DNA of 48,337 bases from Mageeibacillus sp. UBA1255 (GTDB lineage Bacteria > Bacillota > Clostridia > UBA1212 > UBA1255): assembly GCA_002308795.1 (NCBI GenBank), contig DBVV01000068.1, positions 1,076 to 49,412 of the forward strand. The letters run 5' to 3'. The translations under genes were made by a program, and so were the position numbers. Positions 1 through 25,034 of the stretch are shown here, piece by piece. The notes under the pieces were generated by a model. That model did not search any database. It saw nothing but the letters and a program-made list of their open reading frames with translations, and was not told the origin of the DNA. Every line of letters starts with the position of its first letter. Within the stretch, counting starts at the first letter, position 1.

Positions 1-389
1 CGGTACATCTGGTTGCGCATGTCGTAGGATATGTGCTGCGCGATCCAGTTGTTCAGATAGTTCTGCCCTACGCCGATCAGGTTCGATCCCAGGTGCAGCG
101 CTAGGGAGATCACGATCAGCCTGATCAGCGCGGCGATGCCGCTGCCGATCCAGCCGCCCATGTCCTTGCCCGTGAGCACGTCCACGATGCTGCCCGTCAG
201 GATCGACGGGAACAGGCTGCACACCGACGCTACCGCTATACAGGCGAGCACCAGCGCCAGCTGCTTCCAGTACGGCCGTATATACGAGAATATCCGCGCG
301 AGCAGCTCCTTTGTGACCTTCGGGGTATTCTTTTTTTCCTCGTCCGTGAGGTAGCTCCCCCTGCCGCCTCTTCCGCCGGGTCCCTGCAT
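1..389 (-). CDS. ABC exporter, N-terminal transmembrane domain (5' part of the gene; continues past the window start)
   Basis: My own reverse-complement translation from the ATG at 389-387, which is preceded by GGAGGAGG. It reads MQGPGGRGGRGSYLTDEEKKNTPKVTKELLARIFSYIRPYWKQLALVLAC...ISYDMRNQMY, a typical N-terminus of MsbA-type ABC exporter membrane domains. The ORF is open to the window edge, so it is missing from the ORF track. Confidence 0.75.
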   Translation of the reverse strand, partial: MQGPGGRGGRGSYLTDEEKKNTPKVTKELLARIFSYIRPYWKQLALVLACIAVASVCSLFPSILTGSIVDVLTGKDMGGWIGSGIAALIRLIVISLALHLGSNLIGVGQNYLNNWIAQHISYDMRNQMY

Positions 390-437: not shown

Positions 438-1193
438 TCATTCCTTTACCGACCGCATCGCCAGGAACGTGGGGATGTGCAGCTCGTGCAGCCGCCCCGA
501 TCCGTTCGTGTCCTCGTACAGCTCCAGCAGCCTGAAGCCCGCCTCCAGCTGTCCTCCGATCTGCTCCTCCAGCGAATGGGAGAACTGCACCCCGGCGTCC
601 TGCTCCTCGAGCTGCCGCATCTGGTCCTCGTTGGCCAGCGGATCGAAGGGCAGCGAATTGACGATCGCCTTTTCCTCCTCGTCCACTATGTAGTTCACGT
701 AATGGTCCGTGCCCGCTATCAGGCAGCCCCCGCGCCTCAGCACGCGGTGACACTCCCTCCAGATCGGCCGCACCTCCCGCACGTAGCAGTTGGATACGGG
801 ATGGAACACGATATCGAACTCGCCGTCGGAAAAGGGCAGAGGCTTCGTCATATCCGCCCGTACGATGCGGATGGAGTAGCCTTCCCTTTCGCTGACGGCC
901 CGTTCGCTCTCGATCTGCCTGGACGAGTAATCCAGCACCGTGCACTCCGCGCCGAGCGCCGCGAACACCGGCATCTGCTGCCCGCCGCCGCTGGCGAGGC
1001 CCAGCACCTTTTTGCCGCGCAGGTCGCCGAACCAGCGGTGCGGAACGGGCTTTGTGGGGGTCAGGTATATCTCCCATTCGCCCCGTAACGCTTTCAGGTA
1101 CGCCTCGTGCGTGATGGGCTTTCCCCATTCCCAGCCCTCGTCGACCCATTTATCGATGGTCCTGGCGTTGACGTCCTGGTAATCTTCCCGCAT
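438..1193 (-). CDS. Class I SAM-dependent methyltransferase (small-molecule type)
   Basis: 251-aa ORF with the SAM-binding motif VLGLASGGGQQ and, downstream, FDIVFHPVSNCYV...RVLRRGGCL, typical of the Methyltransf_11 fold. It has no DNA-methyltransferase (D/N)PPY motif. Confidence 0.85.
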   Translation of the reverse strand: MREDYQDVNARTIDKWVDEGWEWGKPITHEAYLKALRGEWEIYLTPTKPVPHRWFGDLRGKKVLGLASGGGQQMPVFAALGAECTVLDYSSRQIESERAVSEREGYSIRIVRADMTKPLPFSDGEFDIVFHPVSNCYVREVRPIWRECHRVLRRGGCLIAGTDHYVNYIVDEEEKAIVNSLPFDPLANEDQMRQLEEQDAGVQFSHSLEEQIGGQLEAGFRLLELYEDTNGSGRLHELHIPTFLAMRSVKE

Positions 1194-1302
1194 GACCGCT
1201 CAATCCCTTCCGGCTCGTATTCGCCGCACAAGTGTACCACAAACGCGATAAAAAAATCAATCGCGGAAGAGCCCCGTCCCGCGCCTTCGAACGTCCGTTC
1301 GC

Positions 1303-1330
1303 TTGATTTTCCCGCAGGTTATGGTACAAT
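1303..1330 (+). promoter_or_regulatory. Sigma-70-type promoter for the TerB/ATPase/helicase operon
   Basis: TTGATT (1303-1308), a 16-nt spacer, then the extended -10 TGgTACAAT (1322-1330). It sits in a short AT-rich island inside a GC-rich region, 35 nt upstream of the RBS GGGAGG and the ATG at 1365. Confidence 0.6.
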
Positions 1331-1364
1331 ATAATGGGTGAATGAGCGGACGGGAGGTTGGAGC

Positions 1365-3218
1365 ATGCGCATAACGGAGCTCGCCGAATACGCAAAGGAA
1401 GCGTACGGGATCGAGCACACGGAGGAATGCGCCCGCGTCCCCTGCCGCTGCGTGCTGCGCGACCCCCGCACCGGCAGGCGCGTCGCCTCGCTGATCCGGG
1501 AGCGCGACGGGCGCACCGGGCGCGAGATCGAGCGATGCACGATCCGGTGCGGACGCCCCTCCGCCCTGCTGTGCGAAAAGCCGTACGTCACGCATCCCAT
1601 CCCCGGATACGACATAGACTGGGCGGCCGTGGAATTCACGGACGAGACGGAAAGAAGCGTTGTCGTCCGCCTGTTCGACAGGGCGATGGCGCTTTGCGGG
1701 GATATGTACACGGTGGTACTTGACACCCTCCGCGGCGCACAAGGAGCCTCCTCCTCCGACACGCCCCTTCCGTACTTCGGCAGGGCGAGCGGCATGCCGG
1801 CCCCCACCGTACCCGAGCGCATCGCACAGATGCGCCGCCTGTACGTGTACGGGAGCGAATCCCTGGAGAGCAGGGCCGAGAACTTCCGCCGCCAGGCCGC
1901 GTTCATGAAGGATTACGAGGACGAATACCCGTGGCCGGGCGAATGGACCAGGGCCTATCCCACGTACCACGACCTCACCACGCGCCAGCTGCGCGGATAC
2001 TTCTCCTGGCGCACCCGGGCGAGAAAGGGCGAGTTCCTGCCCATCTCCCCGTCTGCCGCGTATATCTACGTGTTCGAGCTGCTGAACGGGATCGGCGCAG
2101 GCACGCCTTCGGACGCGCTCGAAAAGCTCCTGGCGTTCGAACGCGGCTATGTCGACAAGGGGTACGGCGACGTATGGATGCGCGACAGGCTGCACAGCTG
2201 GATGCTGGCTCTTTCGGTGGTGAACGGACTCCCGCAGGAAGAAGCGCGGGAGTTCGCGGGCAGGGAGCTCACGGAGCAGGACCTGGCGGTCGAAGCGCTC
2301 CGCACCGCGCAGGAGCAGACAGACGAGGCCGTCTACCTGGCGCTCGCCCGTTTCGGAGGTGCGGCGCTTGCCCGCTCCCCCGTGCCGGCGAAGGACATGC
2401 AGCGCTGCGCGCGCCTTTTCGCGTCGGCCTGGAGGCACGCCGCCGCGGAATACGAAAAGGGCGGCCGGGACCTGTTCACGCTCTGCTTTTCCGAGCCTTC
2501 CTTCCGCCCCTGGTATCCGTTCACCGATGCGGTGTACCGCGGCGGGGAGGACAGGCGCGACCGCGTGTACGAGCTCGACCCGGTGCGGACCTACCGCTGC
2601 AGTGGCGGCAGGTGGGAGGTGAGCTCCTACGAGCGGCTCTACTTCGATACGAAGCTCCTCAAGTCCTTCCTGCGGGAGGCCGACCGCGTTTTCAGGCTGT
2701 ACCTGAAGACGGGCCGCCCCCTGAAGCCCGACCGGGAAGCCTCGTGGGCGACTCCCTTCGCGCGGAAGGCCTGCGAGGAGGACACGCTGTACCTGATCGA
2801 GCTTTCGCGGCCCCGCGTCACCATCGACGTATCGCTCCTTGACGGCATCCGGCAGGACGCGCTGGTCACGCAGAGCAGCCTCCTCGTCCCCGAAGAGGAG
2901 GAGCTCGCACTTCCCGGAACCGCGGTTCCCGAGGCAGCCGTGGATCCCGCATCCGCTCCCCGGGCGCCGGATGCCACCGGGACGTGCCTCGCGCTCGAGC
3001 CCGCGTACGAAGCGATCCTGCGGGAACTGCTCCGCGGCGGCGACGCGGCGGGAACGGCGTCCTCCCTGCACGTCATGCCGTCCATCGCGGCGGATGCGAT
3101 CAACGACGCGCTCTACGGCGCGATCGGCGACACGGCCGTCGAATGCGACGGGAACTCCCTCTGCCTGGTACCCGACTACGCGGACGACGTCGCGCGCATA
3201 CTCGGAGGCGAAGAATGA
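1365..3218 (+). CDS. TerB-N / TerB-C domain protein (Shango SngA-like)
   Basis: ORF 1338..3218. I prefer the ATG at 1365 because GGGAGG lies 7 nt upstream. The central segment YPTYHDLTTRQLRGYFSWRTRARKGEFLPISPSAAYIYVFELLNGIG resembles the TerB-N signature. The C-terminal part (VTIDVSLLDGIRQDALVTQSSLL...MPSIAADAINDALYGAIGDTAVE) resembles TerB-C. The stop overlaps the next start (ATGA at 3215-3218). Confidence 0.7.
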   Translation: MRITELAEYAKEAYGIEHTEECARVPCRCVLRDPRTGRRVASLIRERDGRTGREIERCTIRCGRPSALLCEKPYVTHPIPGYDIDWAAVEFTDETERSVVVRLFDRAMALCGDMYTVVLDTLRGAQGASSSDTPLPYFGRASGMPAPTVPERIAQMRRLYVYGSESLESRAENFRRQAAFMKDYEDEYPWPGEWTRAYPTYHDLTTRQLRGYFSWRTRARKGEFLPISPSAAYIYVFELLNGIGAGTPSDALEKLLAFERGYVDKGYGDVWMRDRLHSWMLALSVVNGLPQEEAREFAGRELTEQDLAVEALRTAQEQTDEAVYLALARFGGAALARSPVPAKDMQRCARLFASAWRHAAAEYEKGGRDLFTLCFSEPSFRPWYPFTDAVYRGGEDRRDRVYELDPVRTYRCSGGRWEVSSYERLYFDTKLLKSFLREADRVFRLYLKTGRPLKPDREASWATPFARKACEEDTLYLIELSRPRVTIDVSLLDGIRQDALVTQSSLLVPEEEELALPGTAVPEAAVDPASAPRAPDATGTCLALEPAYEAILRELLRGGDAAGTASSLHVMPSIAADAINDALYGAIGDTAVECDGNSLCLVPDYADDVARILGGEE

Positions 3219-4543
3219 CAGAAAACGTAAAGGTGCCCAAGCGGATATCGCAGGCCGTGCTCAATTCCCTTAAGGGCGGCGTGGTGCCCCGCGTAGGCCT
3301 TCCCTATATCGCCGTGGGCCGCAGGCTCGAGATCGAAGCGCTGCTGCACGACGTGGACGTGATCGCAGAGGGCGGCGCGTCGTTCCGGTTCGTCGTGGGG
3401 CGCTACGGCTCCGGCAAGAGCTTTCTTTTGCAGACCATGCGCAATCACGTGATGGACCGCGGCTTCGTGGTCGCGGACGCCGACCTGTCTCCCGAGCGCC
3501 GCTTCCAGGGAACGCGCGGGCAGGGGCTCGCCACGTACAGGGAGCTGATGGGGAACCTCTCCACCAAGACGAAGCCGGAGGGGGGCGCCCTGCCCCTCGT
3601 GCTGGACAGGTGGATCAACGCGGTGCAGGCGGAGGCGATGAAGGAGACGGGCCTTGCAGCAGGCGATCCCGCGCTCGCGGAGGAGACAGACCGCAGGATC
3701 CGGGCCGTCACCGCCTCCGTCAGCGAACTCGTGCACGGCTTCGAATTCGCAAAGCTCCTGTCCGCCTATTACCGCGCATACCTGAAAAGCGACGACGCGC
3801 TCAAGGCGAACGTGCTGCGCTGGTTCCGCGGCGAATACGCCACGAAGACGGAGGCGAAGGAGGCGCTGGGCGTCGGGATCGTGGTGACGGACGACGACTG
3901 GTACGATTACCTCAAGATCTTTGCGATCTTTTTCTGCATGGCCGGCTACAAGGGGCTCATGGTCATGGTCGACGAGCTGGTCAACCTGTACAAGATCCCG
4001 AACCCGGTCACCCGGCAGTACAACTACGAAAAGCTGCTCGCCATGTACAACGACGCGCTCCAGGGCAAGGCGCGGTACATCGGCTTCATCATGGGCTCCA
4101 CGCCCCAGGCGCTCGAGGATAAGCGGCGCGGCATATACAGCTACGAGGCGCTCCGCTCCCGCCTCACCGACGGGCGCTTCACCGGGCCCGGCGCGAGGGA
4201 CCTGCTGGCGCCCGTGATACGGCTCGAGCCCCTCACCGCGGAAGAGATGCTCGTGCTGTGCGAAAAACTCTCCGCCATGCACGCCGACCTGTACGGCAGC
4301 GAGCGTACGCTCACCTCCGGGGATCTGGCGGTCTTCGTCAAGGCGGAGTACGAAAGGATCGGCGCGGATCTCAACATCACGCCGCGCGAAGTGATCCGCG
4401 ACCTGATCGGGATCCTGGATATCCTATTCCAAAACCCCGGCATGAGCCTCACGGACGTGCTGGGATCGGACAAATTCACCTATTCCGTCTCGGACGAGGT
4501 GCCAAACGCCGCAGATCCCGGCTACGCGGAGTTTACGATATGA
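3215..4543 (+). CDS. P-loop ATPase, DUF2791 / BrxD-like (Shango SngB-like)
   Basis: The in-frame ATG at 3215 (MTENVKVPKR...) lies within ORF 2984..4543. Walker A is VVGRYGSGKSFLLQ and Walker B is GLMVMVDELVNL. The N-terminal GGVVPRVGLPYIAVGR is typical of this family. ATGA overlaps occur at both ends. Confidence 0.75.
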   Translation: MTENVKVPKRISQAVLNSLKGGVVPRVGLPYIAVGRRLEIEALLHDVDVIAEGGASFRFVVGRYGSGKSFLLQTMRNHVMDRGFVVADADLSPERRFQGTRGQGLATYRELMGNLSTKTKPEGGALPLVLDRWINAVQAEAMKETGLAAGDPALAEETDRRIRAVTASVSELVHGFEFAKLLSAYYRAYLKSDDALKANVLRWFRGEYATKTEAKEALGVGIVVTDDDWYDYLKIFAIFFCMAGYKGLMVMVDELVNLYKIPNPVTRQYNYEKLLAMYNDALQGKARYIGFIMGSTPQALEDKRRGIYSYEALRSRLTDGRFTGPGARDLLAPVIRLEPLTAEEMLVLCEKLSAMHADLYGSERTLTSGDLAVFVKAEYERIGADLNITPREVIRDLIGILDILFQNPGMSLTDVLGSDKFTYSVSDEVPNAADPGYAEFTI

Positions 4544-6795
4544 ACGTATTCGAGAGATACGCGCCCTTCATACAGGACTATATCTTCCGCAGCGGCTGGA
4601 GGAGCCTCAGAGCCGTGCAGAACGCCGCGGGAGAGGCGATATTCGGGACGGAGGACAACGTCCTGATCGCCGCATCCACCGCGTCGGGAAAGACCGAGGC
4701 GGCCTTCTTCCCCATCCTGACGCTCCTTTCCGAGGATATGCCCGGGTCCGTCGGCGCGCTTTACATCGCGCCGCTCAAGGCGCTGATCAACGACCAGTTC
4801 GGCCGCCTGAAAGAGCTCTGCGCTGAGGCGGACATACCCGTGACCCGCTGGCACGGCGACGCGCCGCGCACCGGCAAGCGCGCACTCCTCAAAAACCCCT
4901 CCGGCATCCTGCAGATCACGCCGGAATCCCTGGAATCGCTTTTGATCAACCGTTCCATGGAGGTCCCGTCCCTTTTCTGCGGCCTTCGCTTTATCGTGAT
5001 CGACGAGATCCACTCGCTCCTGCGCGGCGACCGGGGGCTTCAGACGTTCTGCCTGATCGAAAGGCTCTGCAGGCTTGCAGGATGCGATCCGAGGCGTATA
5101 GGATTATCTGCCACGATAGGCGATCCTGAGGCTGCGGGGAGATTTCTGGCATCGGGGAGCAATAAAAAAACGGTCATACCGAAGTTTAACGGCGGCAAGG
5201 AAGTCTGGCGGCTGTCAATGGAGCATTTTTTCAATTCTGATCCGCAGGCTTCCGAAGGAAGGGTGCTCCCGTTCCCTACCCCGCCTCAGGAAGAACCGAC
5301 AGATAAAGCTCCCAAGGCTGCCGATCCCGGAATGGGCTATATTTTTGAACATACAAAAGGTAAAAAGTGCCTGATATTTACAAACTCCCGGGAGGAGTGC
5401 GAATCGGTCTGCCAGAACCTCAGACAGTATTGCGAAGCGACGAATCAGCCCGACCGTTTCCTGATACACCACGGTAATCTATCCGCATCATACCGCGAAA
5501 GTGCCGAGGAGGATATGAAGGACGACGATTCTTTAAAATCGGTCTGCGCCACCGCGACGCTGGAACTCGGGATAGACATCGGGAGACTGGAGCGCGCGTT
5601 CCACGTTGACGCCCCGTTCACGGTTTCCGGATTTCTTCAGCGCCTTGGCCGCACCGGCCGCCGCGGAGATCCGTCCGAAATGTGGTTCGTCATGCGAGAG
5701 GAACACCAGGAGGCGCGGGCAATGCTTCCGGACAGCATTCCGTGGTACCTGATACAGGGGATCGCGCTTATACAGCTTTACATTGAAGAGCGTTTCGTGG
5801 AGCCGCCGCGTACCGACAGGCTTCCTTACAGTCTGCTTTACCATCAGACTATGAGCACGCTGGCCTCCTGCGGTGAGATGTCGCCAGGCGAGCTGGCATC
5901 AAAAGTTTTAACGCTGAACTGCTTCAAGCGCATAACGCAGGACGATTACAAGGTGCTTCTCCGACATCTTATAGAGATCGATCATATAAACCGCACAGAA
6001 AACGGAGGCCTGATCATGGGTCTTAGCGGAGAGCGCGTCGTAAATAATTTTAAATTCTACGCTGTTTTTCAGGAAAACGTGGAATATACCGTGCGCGCGG
6101 GATCAGAGCAGCTGGGGACGATCGTTAAGCCGCCTCCGGTCGGTGATAAGATCGCCATAGCGGGGCGTGTATGGGTCGTGGAGGAAGTTGACCATAAGCG
6201 GCACGAACTTTATTGTACGCTCGTTAAGGGCAATATCCCCGCATATTTCGGCGACGTTGCCGGAGACATACATACGCGCATTCTGGAGCGCATGTACCGC
6301 GTACTGAACGAGGACGATATATACCGTTATCTTATGCCTAACGCCGTTTTCAGACTGTCCGACGCGAGGGAAACGTTTGCCCGGTCAGGCATGTCAGGCC
6401 GCCCTATGATCAACCTGGGCGGTAATATGTGGGCGCTCTTCCCCTGGCTCGGCAGTTACGCATTTTTAGCTTTAGAACGGTTTTTAAAGATTCGGTGTGC
6501 AAAGAGGCTCGGATTAAAAGGGCTGAATTCGTCGAGGCCGTACTGGATCCAGTTCACGATGCAGGTAAGCGAAAAAGAGTTTTACGGCATCGTTCGTGAA
6601 GAGGCGGAGAAAGAATTCGATCCGCTTGAACTTGTGTATAAGGATGAGGTCCCGGTATTTGAAAAATATGACGAATTCGTTCCTCCTGAGCTTGTGCGCA
6701 AAGGATTTGCTTACGGCGTGCTGGATGTAGAGGGAATGAAGCAGCGAGTCGTTTCATGGGATCGTAATTATACGGAGGGCGTCCGGAATGATTAA
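4540..6795 (+). CDS. DEAD/DEAH-box SF2 helicase, Lhr / BrxHI-like (Shango SngC-like)
   Basis: The in-frame ATG at 4540 (MNVFERYAPF...) lies within ORF 4258..6795. Helicase motifs: I ASTASGKTEAAF, II VIDEIHS, III GLSATIG, IV LIFTNSREE, V ATLELGIDIG, VI LQRLGRTGRRG. A C-terminal region of about 330 aa has no motif I recognise. Confidence 0.85.
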   Translation: MNVFERYAPFIQDYIFRSGWRSLRAVQNAAGEAIFGTEDNVLIAASTASGKTEAAFFPILTLLSEDMPGSVGALYIAPLKALINDQFGRLKELCAEADIPVTRWHGDAPRTGKRALLKNPSGILQITPESLESLLINRSMEVPSLFCGLRFIVIDEIHSLLRGDRGLQTFCLIERLCRLAGCDPRRIGLSATIGDPEAAGRFLASGSNKKTVIPKFNGGKEVWRLSMEHFFNSDPQASEGRVLPFPTPPQEEPTDKAPKAADPGMGYIFEHTKGKKCLIFTNSREECESVCQNLRQYCEATNQPDRFLIHHGNLSASYRESAEEDMKDDDSLKSVCATATLELGIDIGRLERAFHVDAPFTVSGFLQRLGRTGRRGDPSEMWFVMREEHQEARAMLPDSIPWYLIQGIALIQLYIEERFVEPPRTDRLPYSLLYHQTMSTLASCGEMSPGELASKVLTLNCFKRITQDDYKVLLRHLIEIDHINRTENGGLIMGLSGERVVNNFKFYAVFQENVEYTVRAGSEQLGTIVKPPPVGDKIAIAGRVWVVEEVDHKRHELYCTLVKGNIPAYFGDVAGDIHTRILERMYRVLNEDDIYRYLMPNAVFRLSDARETFARSGMSGRPMINLGGNMWALFPWLGSYAFLALERFLKIRCAKRLGLKGLNSSRPYWIQFTMQVSEKEFYGIVREEAEKEFDPLELVYKDEVPVFEKYDEFVPPELVRKGFAYGVLDVEGMKQRVVSWDRNYTEGVRND

Positions 6796-7891
6796 AAAGC
6801 GAAGAAAGATATCATTCATACTGATTATGGCATTGTCCGCGGCGATTTGTTTTACAGGTTGTTTCGCGAATCGTTCTGCCGTTGATGATTACGGATCGCA
6901 GCCTGAAACCACCGATAATATTGACGTCGTGATCGTCACTCCCCTGCCGAACGGCGCCGGATCTCCGGAGGCCTCTTACCCGGTAAGTGAAACGCCGGAC
7001 GATGCCGCGACCACGCCGGACGAGCTTAACACTCCTGCCGGAACGGAAAACGCGACTGAAATACCGGGCACTAAGACTCCGGACCATAACGTAGTTCTTA
7101 AAGTCGATCCTGAGAAGCTCCACAGCAGAAGCGTGATGCTTAAAAATATCGATACGGGAAAGATAATGTACGAATTATCCGCAAGCACCAGAATATACCC
7201 CGCTTCGCTCACAAAAATGATGACCGGGCTGCTGGCTGCCGAGATGCTCAGCGCGGATAAAAAGTACGAAGTGACACGTGAGGCTATCGAACGGGCGTAC
7301 AGCCTTGGCGCCTCAACCGGTGGTTTTGAACCGGGTGAATACACGGACAAGGACGGCATTTTAGGCGGGATATTGATGTCTTCCGCGGCTGAGTGCAGTT
7401 TCACTGCGGCGATCGAGCTGTGTGGCTCCGAGGAAGCTTTCGTGGAGCTTATGAATAAAAGAGCTCAGGAGCTGGGTATGAGCAACACGCATTTTGTAAA
7501 CTGCACCGGGCTCCACAATGACGATCATTATTCCACAGTCGAAGATCTGATGAAGCTGGCGGAGCATGCGCTTCGGAATCCGGATTACGTCCGGTTTTTC
7601 ACGCTCGATACCTTTAAAGCATACACGGAGCCGTCACGGAAATACCAGCTGACGTTGACAAGCACTGTTTTTTCGGGCCTTGCCAATTACGATTACGGCG
7701 ACGTGGAAATCCTGGGTGGAAAGACCGGGTACACCAGGCAGGCGGGCCTCTGTCTTACTACTTACTCGCTGTACGCGGGCAATCACTATATATTGATCAC
7801 GGCGGACAATGACGGAAACCTGAACACGGATAAGTATCATTTTATTGACGCGGAATACATTTACAGAGTTTTGCAGGAGGAATTACGATGA
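6788..7891 (+). CDS. D-alanyl-D-alanine carboxypeptidase-like (peptidase S11) lipoprotein
   Basis: Signal peptide with the lipobox ICFTGC. SxxK motif ASLTKMM and KTG motif GGKTGYT are present. The SxN position reads SSA, so it may be divergent. The RBS GGAGGG lies inside the helicase 3' end, giving an 8-nt overlap. Confidence 0.75.
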   Translation: MIKKRRKISFILIMALSAAICFTGCFANRSAVDDYGSQPETTDNIDVVIVTPLPNGAGSPEASYPVSETPDDAATTPDELNTPAGTENATEIPGTKTPDHNVVLKVDPEKLHSRSVMLKNIDTGKIMYELSASTRIYPASLTKMMTGLLAAEMLSADKKYEVTREAIERAYSLGASTGGFEPGEYTDKDGILGGILMSSAAECSFTAAIELCGSEEAFVELMNKRAQELGMSNTHFVNCTGLHNDDHYSTVEDLMKLAEHALRNPDYVRFFTLDTFKAYTEPSRKYQLTLTSTVFSGLANYDYGDVEILGGKTGYTRQAGLCLTTYSLYAGNHYILITADNDGNLNTDKYHFIDAEYIYRVLQEELR

Positions 7892-8634
7892 GTGGTAATA
7901 AAGGCAAAGGGAACGTTATTGTCACCGGCGGTGCGACCGGAATCGGTATGGCGTGCGTAAAAGCGTTTGCGAAAAATGGTTACAACGTAGTGATCGGTTT
8001 TAATTCCTCCGGCGAGGCCGCGCGCGCACTCGTTCGTGAGCTGATAGCAGACGGGTCCGGGGCAATTGCGGTGAAGGCTGATGTTTCCCGCCCAGCCGAG
8101 GCTGAAAAGCTTGTTTTAAAATGCATCGAGGTCTTCGGCTTTCCGGATATCCTGGTGAACAATGCCGGTATCGCCCTTCCGCAGAAGCTTATCACCGAGA
8201 CGTCTTTTGACGAGTTTTTGCGTGTTATGAAGGTCAATGCCGGGGGCGCGTTTAATTGTTCTCGTGCGGTGCTTCCCCATATGATCCGGCGTCACTCCGG
8301 TTCCATTGTTAATATTTCTTCTGTCTGGGGCCGTGCCGGCGGTTCATGCGAGGTAGCATACAGCGCGTCTAAAGGGGCGGTCATAAGTTTTACAAAAGCG
8401 CTGGCAAAGGAGGTCGGCCCCTCAGGGATCCGCGTCAATTGCGTTGCTCCCGGCGTCATCGACACAAAAATGAACGCAGCCCTGAGTTCCGACGTTATGG
8501 CGGATCTGGCAGATGCTGCGTCTTTATGCCGCATAGGTAAACCCGAAGAGGTCGCCGATGCTGTTTATTACCTCGCCACCAGCGGCGCTTCGTTCATAAC
8601 CGGAGCGGTACTGGATGTGGACGGAGGGCTTTAA
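7888..8634 (+). CDS. SDR-family oxidoreductase (3-oxoacyl-ACP reductase FabG-like)
   Basis: TGGATGIGMA (TGxxxGxG), NNAG and YSASK (YxxxK) motifs. ATGA overlap with the upstream gene. Confidence 0.85.
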   Translation: MSGNKGKGNVIVTGGATGIGMACVKAFAKNGYNVVIGFNSSGEAARALVRELIADGSGAIAVKADVSRPAEAEKLVLKCIEVFGFPDILVNNAGIALPQKLITETSFDEFLRVMKVNAGGAFNCSRAVLPHMIRRHSGSIVNISSVWGRAGGSCEVAYSASKGAVISFTKALAKEVGPSGIRVNCVAPGVIDTKMNAALSSDVMADLADAASLCRIGKPEEVADAVYYLATSGASFITGAVLDVDGGL

Positions 8635-8641
8635 GAAAGTT

Positions 8642-8711
8642 GCAACTTTCAACTTGCCACTTGCAACTTTCAACTTGCCACTTGCAACTTTCAACTTTCA
8701 ACTTGCCACTT
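8642..8711. repeat. Tandem repeat: ten heptads N-C-[A/C]-A-C-T-T, organised as about 3.3 copies of a 21-bp unit
   Basis: Read directly as gcaactt tcaactt gccactt, repeated three times, with one extra tcaactt in the third unit. It fills nearly the whole 79-bp gap between the convergent stops at 8634 and 8714. A 16-bp palindrome, GAAAGTTGCAACTTTC, lies at 8635-8650. Confidence 0.9.
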
Positions 8712-8713
8712 AT

Positions 8714-9538
8714 TTATAGCTTCTCTATTTTCTCCTCAATATCATTCAGCCAGTTGCCATCAAACAACTCGATCATACCGCTATCGACCGCTGCTGTAAG
8801 TTTGGGATCGATCGGTATCTGCGCCGTCGTATCCACACCGAATTTTTTGGCGGTCTCATCAAGTTTACTGTCGCCGAACAGATATAGCTTCTTTCCGCAA
8901 TCGGGGCATGTCGCATAGCTCATGTTTTCAACCAGTGCGAGCACCGGAATTTTCATAAGCTCTGCCATCTTTACAGCTTTACCTACGATCATCGATACAA
9001 GGTCCTGAGGGCTAGTGACAACGATTATACCGTCTACAGGAAGGGACTGGAACACTGTAAGCGGAACATCACCTGTTCCGGGAGGCATATCCACAAACAT
9101 ATAATCCACGTCCGACCAGACGACGTCGGTCCAGAATTGCTTGACCGTGCCGGCAATGATCGGGCCTCTCCAGACTACCGGATCGGTCTCGTTTTCAAGC
9201 AGAAGATTCAGCGACATAACGTCGATACCTGTTTTAGTGACCTCGGGCAATATCCCGGCAGCGCTTCCTTTGGCTTTATCGTGGAGTCCGAAAGCCTCGG
9301 GAATCGACGGCCCGGTAATATCTGCGTCAAGTATTGCCGCCTTATATCCGCGGCGCTGCATTCCGACTGCCAGCAGCGACGTGACGAGAGATTTGCCCAC
9401 GCCACCTTTTCCGCTGACGACAGCTATGACCTTTCCGACTCTGCTGTATTCATTAAGTGATTCGTGCATATCCTGAGGTGACGTTCTGGAAGAACAGTTT
9501 TCCCCGCATGACGAACAATCGTGCGTACATTCGCTCAT
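8714..9538 (-). CDS. Mrp/NBP35-family iron-sulfur cluster carrier ATPase (ApbC-like)
   Basis: Deviant Walker A VVSGKGGVGKS, an N-terminal Cys-rich CTHDCSSCGENC and the C-terminal CPDCG motif. Confidence 0.9.
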   Translation of the reverse strand: MSECTHDCSSCGENCSSRTSPQDMHESLNEYSRVGKVIAVVSGKGGVGKSLVTSLLAVGMQRRGYKAAILDADITGPSIPEAFGLHDKAKGSAAGILPEVTKTGIDVMSLNLLLENETDPVVWRGPIIAGTVKQFWTDVVWSDVDYMFVDMPPGTGDVPLTVFQSLPVDGIIVVTSPQDLVSMIVGKAVKMAELMKIPVLALVENMSYATCPDCGKKLYLFGDSKLDETAKKFGVDTTAQIPIDPKLTAAVDSGMIELFDGNWLNDIEEKIEKL

Positions 9539-9600
9539 ATTACTATCTCCTCTGATGTCAATGATCTGACATTTTATTCGGTCGCTCTGCGACCCGGGCT

Positions 9601-9629
9601 ATTATACATCTTTGTTGTCAATGAGGCAA
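9601..9629 (-). promoter_or_regulatory. Candidate promoter for the Mrp-family gene
   Basis: On the minus strand: TTGCCT, 17 nt, TATAAT, about 60 nt upstream of the ATG at 9538. Confidence 0.45.
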
Positions 9630-9647
9630 GGCGCAGCATCAAGGCAC

Positions 9648-9677
9648 TTGAAAATGCGGTGTTTCGCGTTATATAAT
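9648..9677 (+). promoter_or_regulatory. Candidate promoter for the DUF4091 gene
   Basis: TTGAAA (9648-9653), an 18-nt spacer, then TATAAT (9672-9677). The RBS AGGAGAAAG precedes the ATG at 9716. Confidence 0.55.
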
Positions 9678-9715
9678 CTCACCGGACGATCATAAAAACG
9701 ACAGGAGAAAGAACA

Positions 9716-12019
9716 ATGAAAAAGAAATCAGTCAGAATACTCGTTATTGTCACCGGCCTGGTTATCGCAGCCGGGCTGATCGCGGGATGCGTTTCCGCGA
9801 ACAAGAGAACGACCGATGCCGCTCACGTCCACGCAGACGGTGACGCGATATTGAAATATATATCCGAAACCAATCTCTGCAAAGTATATTCTTCAAAAGA
9901 CAGACTCGAGGGCAATACCGTCGTTCTGGAAACAACAGATTATTCCGAAGATCCTTTCGCTTTCTTTAACTACGAAGGCTACGTGCGCTCGCTCGGATTC
10001 GAACCCGTATCCGCAGACGACTACAAAGTGATCGTTATAAAAGCAAAACAGGAGAACTGTTCAAACATCGAGTTTGAACTGTTTTACGCGGCAGGGAGCG
10101 TTCAGGGCGCGCAGGGAGACGCGAGCAGATCCGTATCATTCGATAACTCTACAGAAGACTGGCAGTATCTTATATTTGATCTCACGTCGGAAAACTTCCA
10201 CGGTACGGTCCACGGATTCAGGTTCGATTTCATGCGTTTTGCATCCTCCGCTGGAGAAAAATTCAGCATTGCCTCTATCACGTTCCTGAAAAACACTGCG
10301 GAAGCTGCTAAATTTATCACTTCTCAGAACGGGCCCGATCCCCATCTGCTCTCGGATAAGCAGCAAAAAGCAGCTGATGCTTTGCTTAAAACGGTATCTT
10401 TATCTGAGCCGGAGAATAAAAAACAGATCGCCCCGGGAGAAGATCCGTCTATCGATCTGTGGTTCGATCACACTTACACAAAAACTCCTGCCGAGTCGAC
10501 AAAATCAAGCGGGCGGCACACTTATAAGATGTATCTGGCGAAAAACGAGATAGAAGACTGCCAGTTTTTATTGTCGTCGACTTCCGACCGTGAAGGGCTT
10601 ACCGCCAGGATCACACCGTTCGTTAACGGCAAGGGCGAAACGCTTCGCACCGAGCTGTATTACGGCTATTATTTCGATGACGTTCAGGGAAAATCGATCG
10701 TCGATCCGATACCGAGGCTCGACGCACCGTTCTCATTGACCGCGAACAGAAGCAAGCTGTTTATTATTAAATTGTTTACGGAAGAGAGCAGTCAGGCGGG
10801 CGATTATACTGCAGAGTTAAGTATTATTGACTCCGACGGTACGGAACTGAAAAAAGCGACGGTCTACGCGTACGTGTATGATTTTGCGCTTCCTGAGGCG
10901 ACAACGTGCAAGACCCAGATGGATCTGTCGTGGTGGGCGGTATACGTGAATCACGAATTGTATGAAGGCGACGACGGTCTGATGTACAAAAAATACTATG
11001 ATCTGCTGCTTGAGAACCGCGTCTGCGCGTACACCCTCCCCTACAGCGATAACGGCGCATACGAAGATCCGCGCGTTCGTGAATACGTCGCTAACCCGAG
11101 AGTCGTGGCATTTAACCCAATCGGATGGAAAGTCGATCCGACGGTCGAAAACGTGAGTTCGGCGTACAGATACCTTTCTCAGAACCCCGAATGGCTCAAT
11201 AAAGCGTACTTTTATCACGTCGACGAACCCCTTTCGATGGAGGCGCTGAATCAGGTCAATTCAGAGGGTAAGCTGTTCGCGGACAATTTCCCGGGCTACC
11301 ACTATCTCGTGCCCATACACTATGACATGGCTCTCGATCAGGAGAGTAAGACGGACTTTTTCGAATACGTAAGTCAGTACGTGAATTCATGGTGCCCGCA
11401 TACGTTTTTCTATAACACGCTTGCTGATTACAAGCGAAATCCGATGCTTACTTACCGTGTAGGAGGTATGCTGGAAAAGAATCTGGGGACTTTCCCGGAG
11501 CGTATGGCAAAACATCAGTCCGAAGGTGACGACGTGTGGTGGTACGTTACGCGCTACCCTCAGTCGCCCGAGATCACGGTGTCAATAGAAACGCAGGCCG
11601 TTCGTTACCGCATCCTGTTCTGGCAGCAGAAACTGTACAACGTAAATCATTTCCTGTACTATCTTGTCAACGACTGGTTCCCGTCAACTGACGCGGCGGG
11701 AAATCCGGATTTCGGCTGGAATTCGAAGCATGAACAGGCTTCCGGGGCTACTCCGTATGACATCTACGGTAACGGCGTTCTGGTATACGCAGGTCATTAT
11801 ATCGGCGTAGAAGAACCGATCGGCTCCCTTCGCTTAGAATGCATACGTGACGGTATCGAGGACTTTGAGTACCTGACGCTGTTTGAGCAGCTTTACGGTT
11901 CTGATAAGCTGGAGCTGGTTATCAAGCAGGTCACCACGTCTTTAGGCGAGTACACTACCGACGAAGAGGTGTTCACCCGCATCCGCTGCCTGCTGGGCAT
12001 GCTGATCGAGGCGAAGTGA
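9716..12019 (+). CDS. Secreted lipoprotein-like DUF4091-domain protein (GH123-like putative glycoside hydrolase)
   Basis: Signal peptide with LIAGC. The C-terminal LECIRDGIEDFEYL segment is one I associate with DUF4091, the catalytic region of GH123 beta-N-acetylgalactosaminidases. The N-terminal region looks like a beta-sandwich. The family call is from memory only. Confidence 0.55.
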   Translation: MKKKSVRILVIVTGLVIAAGLIAGCVSANKRTTDAAHVHADGDAILKYISETNLCKVYSSKDRLEGNTVVLETTDYSEDPFAFFNYEGYVRSLGFEPVSADDYKVIVIKAKQENCSNIEFELFYAAGSVQGAQGDASRSVSFDNSTEDWQYLIFDLTSENFHGTVHGFRFDFMRFASSAGEKFSIASITFLKNTAEAAKFITSQNGPDPHLLSDKQQKAADALLKTVSLSEPENKKQIAPGEDPSIDLWFDHTYTKTPAESTKSSGRHTYKMYLAKNEIEDCQFLLSSTSDREGLTARITPFVNGKGETLRTELYYGYYFDDVQGKSIVDPIPRLDAPFSLTANRSKLFIIKLFTEESSQAGDYTAELSIIDSDGTELKKATVYAYVYDFALPEATTCKTQMDLSWWAVYVNHELYEGDDGLMYKKYYDLLLENRVCAYTLPYSDNGAYEDPRVREYVANPRVVAFNPIGWKVDPTVENVSSAYRYLSQNPEWLNKAYFYHVDEPLSMEALNQVNSEGKLFADNFPGYHYLVPIHYDMALDQESKTDFFEYVSQYVNSWCPHTFFYNTLADYKRNPMLTYRVGGMLEKNLGTFPERMAKHQSEGDDVWWYVTRYPQSPEITVSIETQAVRYRILFWQQKLYNVNHFLYYLVNDWFPSTDAAGNPDFGWNSKHEQASGATPYDIYGNGVLVYAGHYIGVEEPIGSLRLECIRDGIEDFEYLTLFEQLYGSDKLELVIKQVTTSLGEYTTDEEVFTRIRCLLGMLIEAK

Positions 12020-12055
12020 GGCTTCCGTCAGCCACATTCTCGATAATCCGCCATT

Positions 12056-12101
12056 GTAGCTGACAAAAACGCCTATTTTGTCAGCTACATTTTACGTTTT
12101 T
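12056..12101 (+). terminator. Rho-independent terminator
   Basis: Perfect 13-bp stem GTAGCTGACAAAA / TTTTGTCAGCTAC with a 7-nt loop, followed by the T-rich ATTTTACGTTTTT, 37 nt after the stop at 12019. Confidence 0.85.
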
Positions 12102-12172
12102 CGTGATTGCAGCTGATGCACTTTTTTCACCATATCGGATCGAGTACTGGAATCGAATCAAGCGCAAAAGCA

Positions 12173-12216
12173 TGCAACTAAATTCAGTTGCAAAATGATT
12201 TTATTAATGATATAAT
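12173..12216 (+). promoter_or_regulatory. hicAB promoter with an overlapping inverted-repeat operator
   Basis: TTGCAA (12188-12193), a 17-nt spacer, then TATAAT (12211-12216). The inverted repeat TGCAACT-6 nt-AGTTGCA (12173-12192) overlaps the -35 box. The RBS GGAGGG lies 9 nt before the GTG at 12241. Confidence 0.7.
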
Positions 12217-12240
12217 AAGCGACGTGGAGGGATATCTACA

Positions 12241-12498
12241 GTGAGCCAAAAAGATAAGTTGATAGCAAAACTACGTTCAAAGCCAAAAACGTTTACGTTT
12301 GATGAAGCTGAGCTTTTACTCGGGTATCTTTCTTATAGAAAGAGCGATAAAGGTAAAACAAGCGGCTCACGTGTTATGTTCGTAAGCGATGAACATAATT
12401 CCAAAATATTGTTACACAAACCTCACCCAAGAAAGGAACTTTTAGAATATCAGGTAAAGCAGCTATTAGAACAACTGGAACAGGAGGGTCTGATATGA
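12241..12498 (+). CDS. hicA: Type II toxin-antitoxin system, HicA-family mRNA interferase toxin
   Basis: 85 aa with a GTG start. Contains GSRVMF...LHKPHPRKEL, the HicA/YcfA-like signature. ATGA overlap with the downstream HicB gene. Confidence 0.8.
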   Translation: MSQKDKLIAKLRSKPKTFTFDEAELLLGYLSYRKSDKGKTSGSRVMFVSDEHNSKILLHKPHPRKELLEYQVKQLLEQLEQEGLI

Positions 12499-12839
12499 AT
12501 AATATGTTGCAATATAAAGGCTATTTAGGAAGCATTGAATTTTCTGAGGCTGACGGAGTATTTTATGGGAAAGTACAGGGAATTCGTTCTTTGATTTCTT
12601 ACGAAGGTGCTACCGCAAAGGCACTTTTAGAAGACTTCCACGGCGCGATTGACGATTATCTTGAATTATGTGCCGAAAATGGAATTAAACCCGAAACAGC
12701 GTATAAAGGAAGCCTTAATGTACGTCTTGGAACAGATCTTCACAGGCGCGCAGCTATTTTTGCGATCAACCACAGCCAAAGCCTCAACAGTTTTATTGAA
12801 GAAGCTGTACGGGACAAACTTGCGGCATCTAACGGATGA
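12495..12839 (+). CDS. hicB: HicB-family antitoxin with a C-terminal ribbon-helix-helix domain
   Basis: 114 aa. The N-terminal YKGYLGSIEFSEADGVFYGKVQGI is the HicB fold signature. The C-terminal SLNVRLGTDLHRRAAIFAINHSQSLNSFIEEAV is RHH/CopG-like. Confidence 0.8.
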   Translation: MNNMLQYKGYLGSIEFSEADGVFYGKVQGIRSLISYEGATAKALLEDFHGAIDDYLELCAENGIKPETAYKGSLNVRLGTDLHRRAAIFAINHSQSLNSFIEEAVRDKLAASNG

Positions 12840-12852
12840 TAGGTGATTTTAT

Positions 12853-13932
12853 TTGAAACGCAACGATCTGACGATACTTATCAAGCCAGTTTCCGGTCTG
12901 TGTCAACTATCCTGTAAGTATTGTTTTTACAAGGAGTTGGCCGGACTTAACGATATTAGGGAACAATTGATGCAGCCGGAAGTGGCAGACGGACTGATCA
13001 AAAAAGTCGGTGAAATCCTTGCCCCGGGGCAGCAGGTCAATTTCGCTTTTCAAGGCGGCGAACCGCTTCTGGCCGGGCCTGATTTCTACGTATCTTTTTT
13101 CGAAAAAGTAAAGAAAGCAAATATCAAAGCAACGTATCTTTTTCAAACAAACGGGATCGCGTTGACGTCGGAAAAATGTGAAGAATATTTAAAGCTGTTT
13201 AAAGAAAACAACTGCCTGATTGGTCTATCTGTTGACGGCCCGCGAAAAATGCATGATGCAAACCGCATTGACCATAACGGATCAGGTACGTATGATACGG
13301 TCATGCAGGCATACAAATTGCTCAAAAACGCAAATATAGAAGTAAATTTCCTGACAGTACTGTCTAAAGCCGTATTGACTCACCCGAAACTGCTTTACGA
13401 TTTTTACAGAAATTCTGGAATCAAATACGTCCAATTGATCCCGTGCCTTCCTCCTCTTAACGAAACAGAAAGAAAAGATAATAAATACAGCATGCTTCTT
13501 GCAGCATTCTGGATCCAATTTTATGATTTGTGGAAAAAGGATTTTTTAAGCGGAAAAAGCTATTTTGAAGTCAGAGAGTTCTCTGCCATTCTAAGCGGTC
13601 TTTCAGGGAAGCGTGTCGAAACGTGCATTTTCCCCGGAAAATGCAGCCCTCAGCTAGTTGTAGAGGCAGACGGAAGCACTTATCCGTGTGACTTTTATGT
13701 ACTCCCGCAATATCGAACCGGATCAGTATTGTCCGATTCACTCGAAGACACTTTACGCTCAGTCAATATGTTAAGATTCGCAAAAGATAACCCGCCCCTG
13801 CAGTCACAGTGCCTGCAATGCAGGTACAGCGTTTTATGCAAAGGCGGGTGCAGACGAATGCGTCAGCTTTGGCAAAGTGATCCGGAGAATTGTGCTATGA
13901 GGCTATTCCTGGACCACATTTGCGGCAATTAA
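12853..13932 (+). CDS. Anaerobic sulfatase-maturating enzyme (radical SAM/SPASM, anSME)
   Basis: TTG start. The CQLSCKYCFY radical SAM cluster motif, FQGGEPLL, the SPASM cysteines (YPCDFYV, CLQCRYSVLCKGGCRR) and end-to-end resemblance to clostridial anSME as I remember it. A Cys-type sulfatase is encoded 8 kb away. Confidence 0.8.
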   Translation: MKRNDLTILIKPVSGLCQLSCKYCFYKELAGLNDIREQLMQPEVADGLIKKVGEILAPGQQVNFAFQGGEPLLAGPDFYVSFFEKVKKANIKATYLFQTNGIALTSEKCEEYLKLFKENNCLIGLSVDGPRKMHDANRIDHNGSGTYDTVMQAYKLLKNANIEVNFLTVLSKAVLTHPKLLYDFYRNSGIKYVQLIPCLPPLNETERKDNKYSMLLAAFWIQFYDLWKKDFLSGKSYFEVREFSAILSGLSGKRVETCIFPGKCSPQLVVEADGSTYPCDFYVLPQYRTGSVLSDSLEDTLRSVNMLRFAKDNPPLQSQCLQCRYSVLCKGGCRRMRQLWQSDPENCAMRLFLDHICGN

Positions 13933-15602: not shown

Positions 15603-15690
15603 TGTCAGACCTCTCTTTATGTTCGTCATTAACGAGCGGGCAACCCCAGAGTTACCCGCATCTCAAGCTATCAGTCCTGTCCAAAAAAGA

Positions 15691-15867: not shown

Positions 15868-15880
15868 AATTATCCTCCCA

Positions 15881-20003: not shown

Positions 20004-20006
20004 GAT

Positions 20007-21104: not shown

Positions 21105-21125
21105 ATCCTCTCCCCCCAAAGCAGG

Positions 21126-22067: not shown

Positions 22068-22084
22068 CAAAAATCACCACCGTT

Positions 22085-24825: not shown

Positions 24826-24851
24826 CTCCCGATCCGAAAGTATCCGAGAGA

Positions 24852-24880: not shown

Positions 24881-24936
24881 ATTACAATTTTTTTGGATGG
24901 CAATAAATACTATTTAATACTTTCTTGATAATAAAT

Positions 24937-24986: not shown

Positions 24987-25034
24987 TATCGTTTGATAGA
25001 TTATTATAGATGCATTACGAAGCAGATGCGGTTA

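What the first reader, a model, noticed from the sequence alone, without database searches (positions are those of the whole stretch)
5040..5100. Abrupt codon-usage and GC breakpoint inside the helicase gene
From 1 to about 5040, coding third positions are almost all G or C. My hand counts of 60-nt samples gave 62-70% GC. Leu is nearly always CTG/CTC and Ile is mostly ATC. Within about 60-100 nt after helicase motif II (VIDEIHS, about 5000-5020) and around motif III (GLSATIG, 5101-5121), usage switches to mixed codons. TTA, CTT, ATA, AAA and GAT become common, and sampled 60-nt windows ranged from 38 to 63% GC. The rest of the window then stays at roughly 37-57%.

So the partial ABC exporter, the methyltransferase, both upstream defence genes and only the N-terminal RecA-like half of the helicase share one compositional regime. 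The helicase C-terminal half shares the regime of its downstream neighbours.

This suggests either a recombination junction placed at conserved helicase motifs (swapping the specificity-bearing part of a defence system for a high-GC donor version) or a chimeric assembly joined at a conserved stretch. The reading frame is intact across the junction.
Basis: seen in the sequence. Interest (0 to 1): 0.7.

Follow-up and report, generated by a model that had tools for sequence, protein, structure and literature searches.

The report
Two-lineage junction inside Shango helicase gene
A three-gene anti-phage system (Shango) in an uncultured rumen Clostridia contig switches at a 38-base identical stretch in its helicase gene from a high-GC foreign version to the organism's own version, which is either a recent recombination swapping the front of the system or a mis-joined contig, and only read mapping can say which.

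Summary
GC falls from 64.6% to about 50% at nt ~5096. Inside the helicase gene (4540..6795), GC3 falls from 0.85 to 0.59 at ~5074.

The genes are a Shango defence system: SngA 1365..3218, SngB 3215..4543 and SngC 4540..6795.

At least five independent assemblies of the same rumen Clostridia lineage carry a uniformly ~52% GC "B-type" Shango. It differs from the window by about 25-28% left of nt 4996 and by about 1% to the right. The window is therefore a mosaic. The ABC exporter, methyltransferase, SngA, SngB and SngC residues 1-152 are foreign ("A-type"). The rest is native. The join lies in a 38-nt stretch (4996..5033, helicase motif II) that is identical in both types.

Whether the join is real is unresolved:
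- **In-vivo recombination, about 0.5.** In an independent k=31 assembly of run SRR5324878, the A-type contig runs unbroken to 5033 and no native left arm enters. My simulation gives this pattern in 0-9% of runs if only two separate parents are present.
- **Chimeric join, about 0.42.** The foreign block sits at the contig end. It occurs in one sample only. It brings non-Shango flank genes where native loci have a tmRNA gene.

Either way this is ordinary biology or an artefact, so interest is modest.

The parts
1..389 (-). N-terminal part of an ABC exporter (MsbA-like). It runs off the left end of the window and belongs to the high-GC 'A' regime.
   Evidence: Translation. Logan contig L086 extends the gene 564 nt beyond the window at 100% identity and 61-64% GC. 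GC3 is 0.90.
438..1193 (-). Class I SAM-dependent methyltransferase, 'A' regime. It is not part of Shango.
   Evidence: Pfam Methyltransf_11, E 8e-18. GC3 0.85. It is a singleton 90% cluster and its best relative elsewhere is 84% identical.
1365..3218 (+). SngA (TerB_N + TerB_C protein) of Shango, A-type.
   Evidence: PADLOC SngA E 2.7e-60; Pfam TerB_N and TerB_C. It is only 33% identical to the native B-type SngA of L084. GC3 0.86.
3215..4543 (+). SngB (BrxC/BrxD-like ATPase) of Shango, A-type.
   Evidence: PADLOC SngB E 2e-183; Pfam BrxC_BrxD E 2e-163. It is 71-74% identical to B-type SngB. The exact protein is found only in run SRR5324878 and the source contig.
4540..6795 (+). SngC (DEAD/DEAH helicase, 751 aa), a mosaic. 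Residues 1-152 are A-type and residues from about 165 onward are B-type.
   Evidence: PADLOC SngC E 1e-276. Identity to P0001 is 84% over aa 1-178 and 99% over aa 179-751. Motif positions: I GKT 4687-4695, II DEIH 5002-5013, III SAT 5107-5115, VI 5638-5661.
4996..5033 (.). Junction interval. This 38-nt stretch (encoding VIDEIHSLLRGD plus the first two bases of the next Arg codon) is identical in the A-type contig and in B-type loci. The crossover or mis-join lies here.
   Evidence: The last dense mismatch against B-type loci is at 4995. Logan contig L002 ends at 5033 and L003 starts at 5004, a 30-nt (k-1) overlap. It is the longest exact run shared by the two types in the known part; the next longest are 26 nt or less.
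5034..8669 (+). Native 'B' block next to the junction: the SngC C-terminal part, D-Ala-D-Ala carboxypeptidase 6788..7891 (its start overlaps the SngC stop by 8 nt) and SDR 7888..8634.
   Evidence: It matches L001, L087, L088 and L089 at about 99% DNA identity, and those loci share the gene order (L087 also carries the next gene, Mrp). L084 matches over the SngC N-terminal 543 residues that it covers. Pfam hits. GC3 0.57-0.59.

Best explanation
The window carries a mosaic Shango anti-phage locus.

**The native locus.** The resident organism is an uncultured rumen Clostridia bacterium of about 50% GC. It normally has a B-type Shango operon lying between its tmRNA gene and a D-Ala-D-Ala carboxypeptidase gene.

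**What is different here.** Everything left of helicase motif II comes from a different lineage of about 65% GC. That covers SngA, SngB, the first ~152-164 codons of SngC, and at least 2.5 kb of unrelated flank (a methyltransferase and an ABC exporter).

**Most likely mechanism (inferred, not shown).** Incoming DNA from the high-GC donor recombined with the resident locus. The right-hand crossover was resolved in the 38-nt stretch of perfect identity at motif II (4996-5033), the longest identical run the two versions share. The left-hand crossover lies beyond the contig end and was not seen.

**Consequence (inferred).** The product is an in-frame hybrid helicase: motifs I-II are foreign, and motifs III-VI and the C-terminal domain are native. 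It is paired with a foreign ATPase and a foreign, very different TerB protein. The putative sensing and front end of the system has been exchanged while the helicase core and its coupling to the downstream host gene are kept.
For: **Shown: the identity step.**
- 243 of 856 sites differ to the left of 4996, against 19 of 1800 to the right (Fisher p = 1e-105).
- The switch is in frame and at homologous positions.

**Shown: the native state.**
- The native B-type left arm joined to the B-type right part of SngC is seen in at least 5 independent assemblies, all with uniform ~52% GC.

**Supporting a physical join in the sample.**
- An independent k=31 assembly (Logan) of run SRR5324878 holds both halves at 100% identity.
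- The A-type contig L002 runs unbroken to 5033. The B-right contig L003 starts at 5004.
- Any native left arm entering this region would have forced L002 to stop at 5025.
- My simulation of a k=31 graph with Minia-like tip clipping gave the observed contig ends in 0-1% of runs at 10x or more, and 9% at 6x, when only two separate parents were present. It gave them in 49-94% of runs when a true A-left-to-B-right molecule plus the A parent were present.
- The B side is well covered (12.6-kb Logan contig), so random loss of the native left arm is unlikely.

**Context.**
- Shango of this type has spread across phyla at 73-78% SngB identity.
- Relatives sit on 697 plasmids, most of them predicted conjugative.
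- SngA is the hypervariable component, so front-end exchange is a plausible route to diversification.
Against: - The mosaic is known from one sample and one assembly only. No second sample reproduces the junction.
- The foreign block reaches the contig end, so no left boundary back into native DNA is seen.
- The foreign block carries non-Shango chromosomal-looking genes. The native locus L084 has a tmRNA gene about 190 nt upstream of SngA instead, and the window has no tmRNA gene.
- The right-hand homology is only 38 nt inside roughly 75%-identical DNA, a poor substrate for RecA-type recombination.
- The Logan assembly breaks exactly at the junction, so another molecule sharing nt ...5033 is present in the sample.
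- The A-left contigs show one coverage gap (L086 and L002 overlap by only 14 nt). This hints at lower coverage than the B side. Local GC of 76% could also explain it.
- The graph argument assumes SRR5324878 is raw, unfiltered data and that Logan contigs behave as strict simplified unitigs. I could not verify either assumption.
Confidence: 0.5

Rival explanations
1. Chimeric contig (inter-genome mis-join). The sample holds two organisms, each with its own Shango. The assembler walked from the ~50% GC Clostridia contig through the 38-nt shared motif-II stretch into a low-coverage contig of a ~65% GC organism. No such DNA molecule exists. A variant is an in-vitro template-switch chimera, if the library was amplified.
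For: - The join is exactly at the longest exact stretch the two versions share.
- The foreign 5-6 kb sits at the contig end, with uniform foreign composition and foreign housekeeping-type flank genes.
- Native loci have a tmRNA gene where the window has the methyltransferase and ABC exporter.
- The junction occurs in one assembly only, while at least 5 assemblies show the unmixed B-type.
- The independent k=31 assembly of the same run does not cross the junction and shows a branch there.
- There is a coverage gap inside the A-left part.
- Contigs of this lineage repeatedly break inside SngB or SngC in other metagenomes. Truncated SngC fragments of 169-173 aa are over-represented among partial hits (11 of 120).
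- Inter-genome translocations are the commonest metagenome misassembly in CAMI benchmarks (PMC9661791).
Against: - If both unmixed parents were in the reads, the native left arm should enter the k=31 graph at 4996 and cut the A-left contig at 5025. The contig actually runs to 5033.
- In simulation the observed pattern arose in only 0-9% of two-parent runs.
- A 38-nt repeat is shorter than the final k of current metagenome assemblers, so a mis-join also needs the native left arm to be missing.
- The Logan contig numbers (30, 418, 549, 608) suggest a low-complexity run, in which a second Shango-bearing organism is less expected. This is a hint only.
Confidence: 0.42
2. No foreign origin. One ancestral gene in which codon usage differs along its length, through local selection, expression-linked bias or incomplete amelioration of an old transfer.
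For: The stretch 4996-5073 is GC3-rich (0.92) even in the low-GC native version, so some local codon bias exists in the family. Mean GC3 of other loci is 0.74-0.80 there.
Against: - The step coincides with a jump from about 1% to about 25-28% divergence against at least 5 near-identical relatives. Codon bias cannot produce that.
- The native versions have uniform GC3 of 0.60-0.68 across SngA, SngB and the SngC N-part.
- The high-GC regime also covers unrelated neighbouring genes.
Confidence: 0.02

Closest known systems
Shango anti-phage system (SngA/SngB/SngC; Millman et al. 2022, bioRxiv 10.1101/2022.05.11.491447; Johnson et al. 2023, PMC10250203)
   Same: The three-gene operon matches: a TerB-domain protein, a BrxC/D-like ATPase and a DEAD/DEAH helicase. 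All three genes hit the PADLOC Sng models very strongly. The gene order is the same in all 80 related loci.
   Different: This is a gut and rumen clade, not the tested E. coli or P. aeruginosa systems. The helicase here is a two-lineage hybrid. Activity was not tested.
Mosaic genes made by interspecies homologous recombination (for example mosaic penicillin-binding-protein genes of Streptococcus and Neisseria; from my own knowledge)
   Same: An in-frame block replacement from a roughly 15-25% divergent donor. The identity breakpoint is sharp and falls in a conserved motif. The protein stays full length.
   Different: Only one of the two crossovers is visible. Donor and recipient differ by about 15 points of GC. 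The foreign block includes flanking non-homologous genes. There is no population evidence.
Inter-genome translocation misassembly in metagenome contigs (metaMIC benchmark, PMC9661791)
   Same: Two genomes are joined at a short shared sequence. The foreign part is at a contig end. Composition steps abruptly at the join.
   Different: The independent k=31 graph of the same run lacks the competing native arm that such a mis-join normally leaves.
tmRNA-flanked core defence hotspot (cDHS2 of P. aeruginosa, PMC10250203)
   Same: In the native locus (L084) Shango lies directly beside the ssrA gene. A core non-coding RNA gene flanks variable defence cargo in the same way.
   Different: Here Shango is on the 5' side of ssrA and divergent from it. 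No integrase or repeats were seen. The window itself lacks ssrA.

Membership tests
Shango defence system | TerB-domain protein (SngA) | tested here: met
   Pfam TerB_N 1.2e-18 and TerB_C 3.1e-14; PADLOC SngA 2.7e-60.
Shango defence system | BrxC/BrxD-like P-loop ATPase (SngB) | tested here: met
   Pfam BrxC_BrxD 1.7e-163; PADLOC SngB 2.1e-183.
Shango defence system | DEAD/DEAH helicase (SngC) with intact motifs | tested here: met
   PADLOC SngC 9.6e-277. Motifs I, II, III and VI are present in one open frame of 751 aa.
Shango defence system | Three genes in one operon in the order A-B-C | tested here: met
   There are 4-nt overlaps at the A/B and B/C boundaries. The order is the same in 80 genome loci.
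Shango defence system | Protects against phage | not testable with these tools
   Shown only for the E. coli and P. aeruginosa systems (PMC10250203).
Recombination mosaic gene | Sharp change of identity to a parental allele at a homologous, in-frame position | tested here: met
   About 28% versus about 1% divergence across 4995/4996.
Recombination mosaic gene | Foreign block bounded on both sides by recipient DNA | tested here: not met
   The high-GC block runs to the window start and 564 nt beyond in L086. No left boundary was seen.
Recombination mosaic gene | Junction present on real molecules (spanning reads, or found in independent samples) | tested here: inconclusive
   Not found in any other assembly. 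The ends of the Logan contigs favour a physical join, but reads could not be inspected.
Inter-genome chimeric contig | Join at a sequence shared exactly by both source genomes | tested here: met
   The 38-nt stretch 4996-5033 is identical in the A-left contig and in B-type loci L087-L089. L001 has one mismatch.
Inter-genome chimeric contig | Both unmixed parents present in the same read set | tested here: inconclusive
   A branch at 5033/5034 shows that a second continuation exists. No contig with the native left arm was found, and the graph shows no entry for one.
Inter-genome chimeric contig | Coverage step and lack of spanning read pairs at the join | not testable with these tools
   No read-level access. 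The only indirect hint is one coverage gap in A-left.

The most novel reading that the evidence does not exclude
A very recent, natural exchange of the front module of a Shango system (SngA, SngB and helicase motifs I-II) between a ~65% GC and a ~50% GC rumen bacterium, resolved in a 38-nt identity at helicase motif II. This would show that conserved helicase motifs act as recombination joints that re-assort the hypervariable TerB component with a resident helicase core, and that an intradomain hybrid SngC is tolerated.
Probability: 0.45. Interest if true: 0.5.

Novelty: new member of a known kind. Interest (0 to 1): 0.3.

Why it matters
If the junction is real, it is a caught-in-the-act example of modular exchange inside a defence operon between distantly related gut bacteria. 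It would point to SngA, and perhaps SngB and the helicase N-terminus, as the part under diversifying pressure. It would also supply a natural hybrid helicase for testing which Shango parts must match each other.

If it is a mis-join, the first ~5 kb of the contig is contamination. The contig should be split at nt ~5000 before the genome is used for taxonomy, GC statistics or defence-system catalogues. It would also warn that widely shared, highly conserved defence genes are places where metagenome assemblies fuse genomes.

Tried and rejected
**Searches that found no junction or donor.**
- An exact look-up of the hybrid SngC in the gene-position index found nothing. The protein is in the protein collection only, from the source NCBI contig of 49,412 nt.
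- A search for a close high-GC donor failed everywhere:
  - The best N-part relative is 84-85% identical.
  - The best SngB in 185,579 species genomes is 78% identical.
  - A JGI metagenome scan with the 38-mer found only two B-type contigs.
  - The methyltransferase, SngA and SngB are singleton clusters.
  - The best methyltransferase relative is 84% identical and unnamed.
- No paper mentions run SRR5324878.

**Attempts to find the native left arm in the same run.**
- Such partial products are not stored in the protein collection. The control fragments were absent too, so that test was uninformative.

**Look-ups that gave nothing useful.**
- The look-up of the 25035-27119 ORF (HtpG) found nothing on record. 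Its product was not checked in the protein collection, and an over-long ORF start is possible.
- The MalQ look-up also found nothing on record. Its product exists only from the NCBI contig, so the gene is probably not intact in the Logan contigs.

**Hypotheses tested and not supported.**
- Motif II is not a family-wide DNA homology hotspot. Exact runs of 31 nt or more occur at many places, and this region is not enriched.
- Similar sharp mosaics are not common among the 72 aligned loci. Only closely related pairs showed patchy identity.
- Phage carriage: none in IMG/VR.
- No tRNA genes are in the window. Pfam scans of the large ORFs gave no integrase or transposase.
- Codon-usage likelihood cannot place the junction more finely than 5034-5076, because both parents share that stretch.
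Full report
**1. The observation**

The compositional break is real and large. A two-segment change-point analysis of GC puts it at nt 5096, with 64.6% GC to the left and 49-51% to the right. The helicase ORF listed as 4258..6795 really starts at the ATG at 4540 (751 aa). Upstream of that, the frame shows the inverted GC1/GC3 pattern of a non-coding frame. Within 4540..6795, GC3 falls from 0.85 to 0.59 at nt 5074, with support 5038-5077. The log-likelihood gain is 23.6, against at most 9.2 in 500 permutations.

Every gene to the left has GC3 of 0.84-0.90. These are the ABC exporter, the methyltransferase, SngA, SngB and SngC residues 1-152. The helicase remainder and ten further genes, out to 48 kb, have GC3 of 0.53-0.61.

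**2. What the genes are**

PADLOC and Pfam identify a complete Shango anti-phage system:

| Gene | Coordinates | Evidence |
|---|---|---|
| SngA | 1365..3218 | TerB_N/TerB_C; PADLOC SngA 3e-60 |
| SngB | 3215..4543 | BrxC_BrxD ATPase; PADLOC SngB 2e-183 |
| SngC | 4540..6795 | DEAD/DEAH helicase; PADLOC SngC 1e-276 |

Upstream and divergent lie a SAM methyltransferase (438..1193, minus strand) and the start of an ABC exporter (389..1, minus strand). Downstream are ordinary chromosomal genes: a D-Ala-D-Ala carboxypeptidase whose start overlaps the SngC stop, an SDR, Mrp/ParA, HtpG, MalQ, MtaB, RNase Z, the CCA-adding enzyme and ABC-F. No tRNA or Rfam RNA genes were found, and the Pfam scans of the large ORFs showed no integrase or transposase. 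Named cluster mates of the right-hand proteins are all "MAG: Clostridia bacterium" from ruminant gut surveys.

**3. The window is a mosaic of two Shango lineages**

The best database hit to SngC (P0001, from MAG GCA_016291965.1) is 99% identical over residues 179-751 but only 84% identical over residues 1-178. Its 4.8-kb contig (L001) has uniform 52.6% GC. At the DNA level it differs from the window at 20-38 sites per 100 nt up to position 4995, and at about 1 site per 100 nt from 4996 onward.

Four further independent contigs from other studies show the same "B-type" arrangement and the same step: L084 and L087-L089. Counted over the aligned stretch, 243 of 856 sites differ on the left and 19 of 1800 on the right (p = 1e-105).

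The native state of this lineage is therefore a uniformly low-GC Shango. The window carries a foreign "A-type" left part. The two types are 33% identical in SngA, 71-74% in SngB and 82% in the SngC N-part.

The stretch 4996..5033 is identical in both types. It encodes VIDEIHSLLRGD plus the first two bases of the next Arg codon, and spans helicase motif II. It is the longest exact run the two types share; the next longest are 26 nt or less. The compositional step lags the identity step because 4996-5073 is GC3-rich (0.92) in the native version too. Codon-usage likelihood therefore cannot refine the junction beyond 5034-5076.

**4. Native context**

L084 reaches 450 nt upstream of B-type SngA. 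There it carries a tmRNA gene (Rfam RF00023, 69.7 bits, cut by the contig end), divergent from SngA and about 190 nt away. The window has no tmRNA gene. At the corresponding place it has the high-GC methyltransferase and ABC exporter. So the foreign block is not just a Shango cassette. It brings at least 2.5 kb of unrelated flank, and with L086 it extends at least 5.6 kb left of the junction without returning to native composition.

**5. Where the foreign part occurs**

The A-type methyltransferase, SngA and SngB are each singleton clusters at 90% identity among about 15 billion proteins. They are known only from the source NCBI contig (49,412 nt) and from the Logan assembly of run SRR5324878. 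No species-representative genome has an SngB above 78% identity. A JGI metagenome scan with the junction 38-mer found only B-type contigs. The donor lineage is thus unsampled elsewhere, and the mosaic is seen in one sample only.

**6. Evidence from the independent assembly of the same run**

Logan (k=31) contigs of SRR5324878 match the window at 100% identity:

| Logan contig | Window coordinates |
|---|---|
| L086 | -563..2961 |
| L002 | 2948..5033 |
| L003 | 5004..8669 |
| L090 | 8668..21267 |

L002 and L003 overlap by exactly 30 nt (k-1). The graph therefore branches exactly at the junction. Position 5034 is a synonymous site.

The important detail is that L002 runs through to 5033. If a native left arm were present in the reads, it would merge with the A-type path at 4996, and the A-left contig would have to stop at 5025.

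I simulated a k=31 graph with abundance of at least 2 and Minia-like tip clipping:

| Molecules in the sample | Coverage | Runs giving the observed contig ends |
|---|---|---|
| Two unmixed parents only | 10x or more for the B-type parent | 0-1% |
| Two unmixed parents only | 6x each | 9% |
| True A-left-to-B-right molecule plus A parent | all tested | 49-94% |

The B side is well covered (a 12.6-kb contig). This favours a physically real join.

Caveats:
- I could not see reads or the run's metadata. The very low Logan contig numbers suggest a low-complexity or possibly pre-filtered read set.
- The simulation is a simplification.
- L086 and L002 overlap by only 14 nt. That is a coverage gap within the A-left part, at a spot with 76% local GC. 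Lower A-side coverage would be more natural under a mis-join.

**7. Weighing the two explanations**

For a mis-join:
- the foreign block is at the contig end;
- the shared stretch is short;
- the foreign flank replaces the native tmRNA context;
- the mosaic occurs once;
- the graph branches at the exact spot;
- contigs of this lineage break inside SngB or SngC in all other assemblies;
- truncated SngC fragments of 169-173 aa are over-represented (11 of 120);
- inter-genome mis-joins are the commonest metagenome assembly error (PMC9661791).

For real recombination:
- the graph has no native left arm (section 6);
- two assemblies are consistent with the same adjacency;
- a 38-nt repeat is too short to fool modern assemblers unless the native arm is missing;
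- this Shango clade is clearly mobile. SngB is 73-78% identical across Firmicutes, Bacteroidales, Treponema, Chloroflexi, Desulfovibrio, Myxococcota and Victivallales, and relatives sit on 697 plasmids, most of them predicted conjugative.

I put real recombination at about 0.5, a chimeric join at about 0.42, and anything else at under 0.1. A purely selective or codon-bias origin is excluded by the identity step.

**8. How the hybrid would work, if real (inferred)**

Motifs I, Ia and II of RecA domain 1 would come from the donor. Motif III onward, RecA domain 2 and the roughly 350-residue C-terminal region would be native. The two N-parts are 82% identical, so folding is plausible.

The functional change would lie mainly in the wholesale replacement of SngA, and of SngB at about 72% identity. 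SngA is the hypervariable component across the family (32-48% identity, against 73-78% for SngB and 75-84% for SngC). It is the likeliest determinant of what the system senses. The mechanism of Shango itself is unknown. Protection has been shown only for the E. coli and P. aeruginosa systems (PMC10250203).

**9. Novelty and interest**

Shango is known. Mosaic genes and chimeric contigs are both well known. Nothing here is outside known kinds.

If real, it is a tidy natural example of module exchange at a helicase motif. If not, it is a contamination flag for the first ~5 kb of the contig. Interest 0.3.

Noticed in passing
L084 5053-5312 (+), next to B-type SngA at L084 2966-4864 (-): In the native low-GC locus, Shango lies directly beside the tmRNA (ssrA) gene, divergent from it and about 190 nt away. 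This recalls the ssrA-flanked core defence hotspot cDHS2 of P. aeruginosa. The window itself has no tmRNA gene.
   Followed up: partly
window 8640-8711: A 21-nt tandem repeat (TTGCAACTTTCAACTTGCCAC, 3.4 copies, with a 7-nt sub-period TTGCAAC) lies in the intergenic space between the SDR and Mrp genes. Logan contigs L003 and L090 end here. Similarity to L001 is lost from about 8629, near that contig's end.
   Followed up: partly
window 12241-12839: A HicA/HicB toxin-antitoxin pair (Pfam HicA_toxin 3e-07, HicB 2e-18) sits at the start of a lower-GC stretch.
   Followed up: partly
window 12000-25000: A second compositional regime (41-50% GC against about 51% around it). It holds a radical-SAM/SPASM enzyme, three large proteins with no significant Pfam match (557, 776 and 600 aa), two GDPD phosphodiesterases, a sulfatase and a LysR regulator. 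It may be an accessory island.
   Followed up: no
loci L004-L083 (Shango operons of 80 species genomes): This gut and rumen Shango clade is strikingly conserved across phyla (SngB 73-78%, SngC 75-84% amino-acid identity to the window). SngA is only 32-48% identical. The pattern is a conserved motor with a hypervariable TerB component.
   Followed up: partly
window 6788-6795, and the same place in L001, L087-L089: The SngC stop codon overlaps the start of the D-Ala-D-Ala carboxypeptidase gene by 8 nt, in the window and in the four native loci that reach it. The defence operon therefore looks translationally coupled to a host cell-wall gene.
   Followed up: no
hits (partial SngC proteins): Among 120 truncated SngC N-terminal fragments from many metagenomes, lengths cluster at 169-173 aa (11) and 276-278 aa (6). 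Contigs from many assemblies seem to end at the same conserved spots of this gene.
   Followed up: no
window 36913-40434 (-): A 1173-aa ORF with no Pfam match at E up to 0.01, in an otherwise housekeeping neighbourhood.
   Followed up: no
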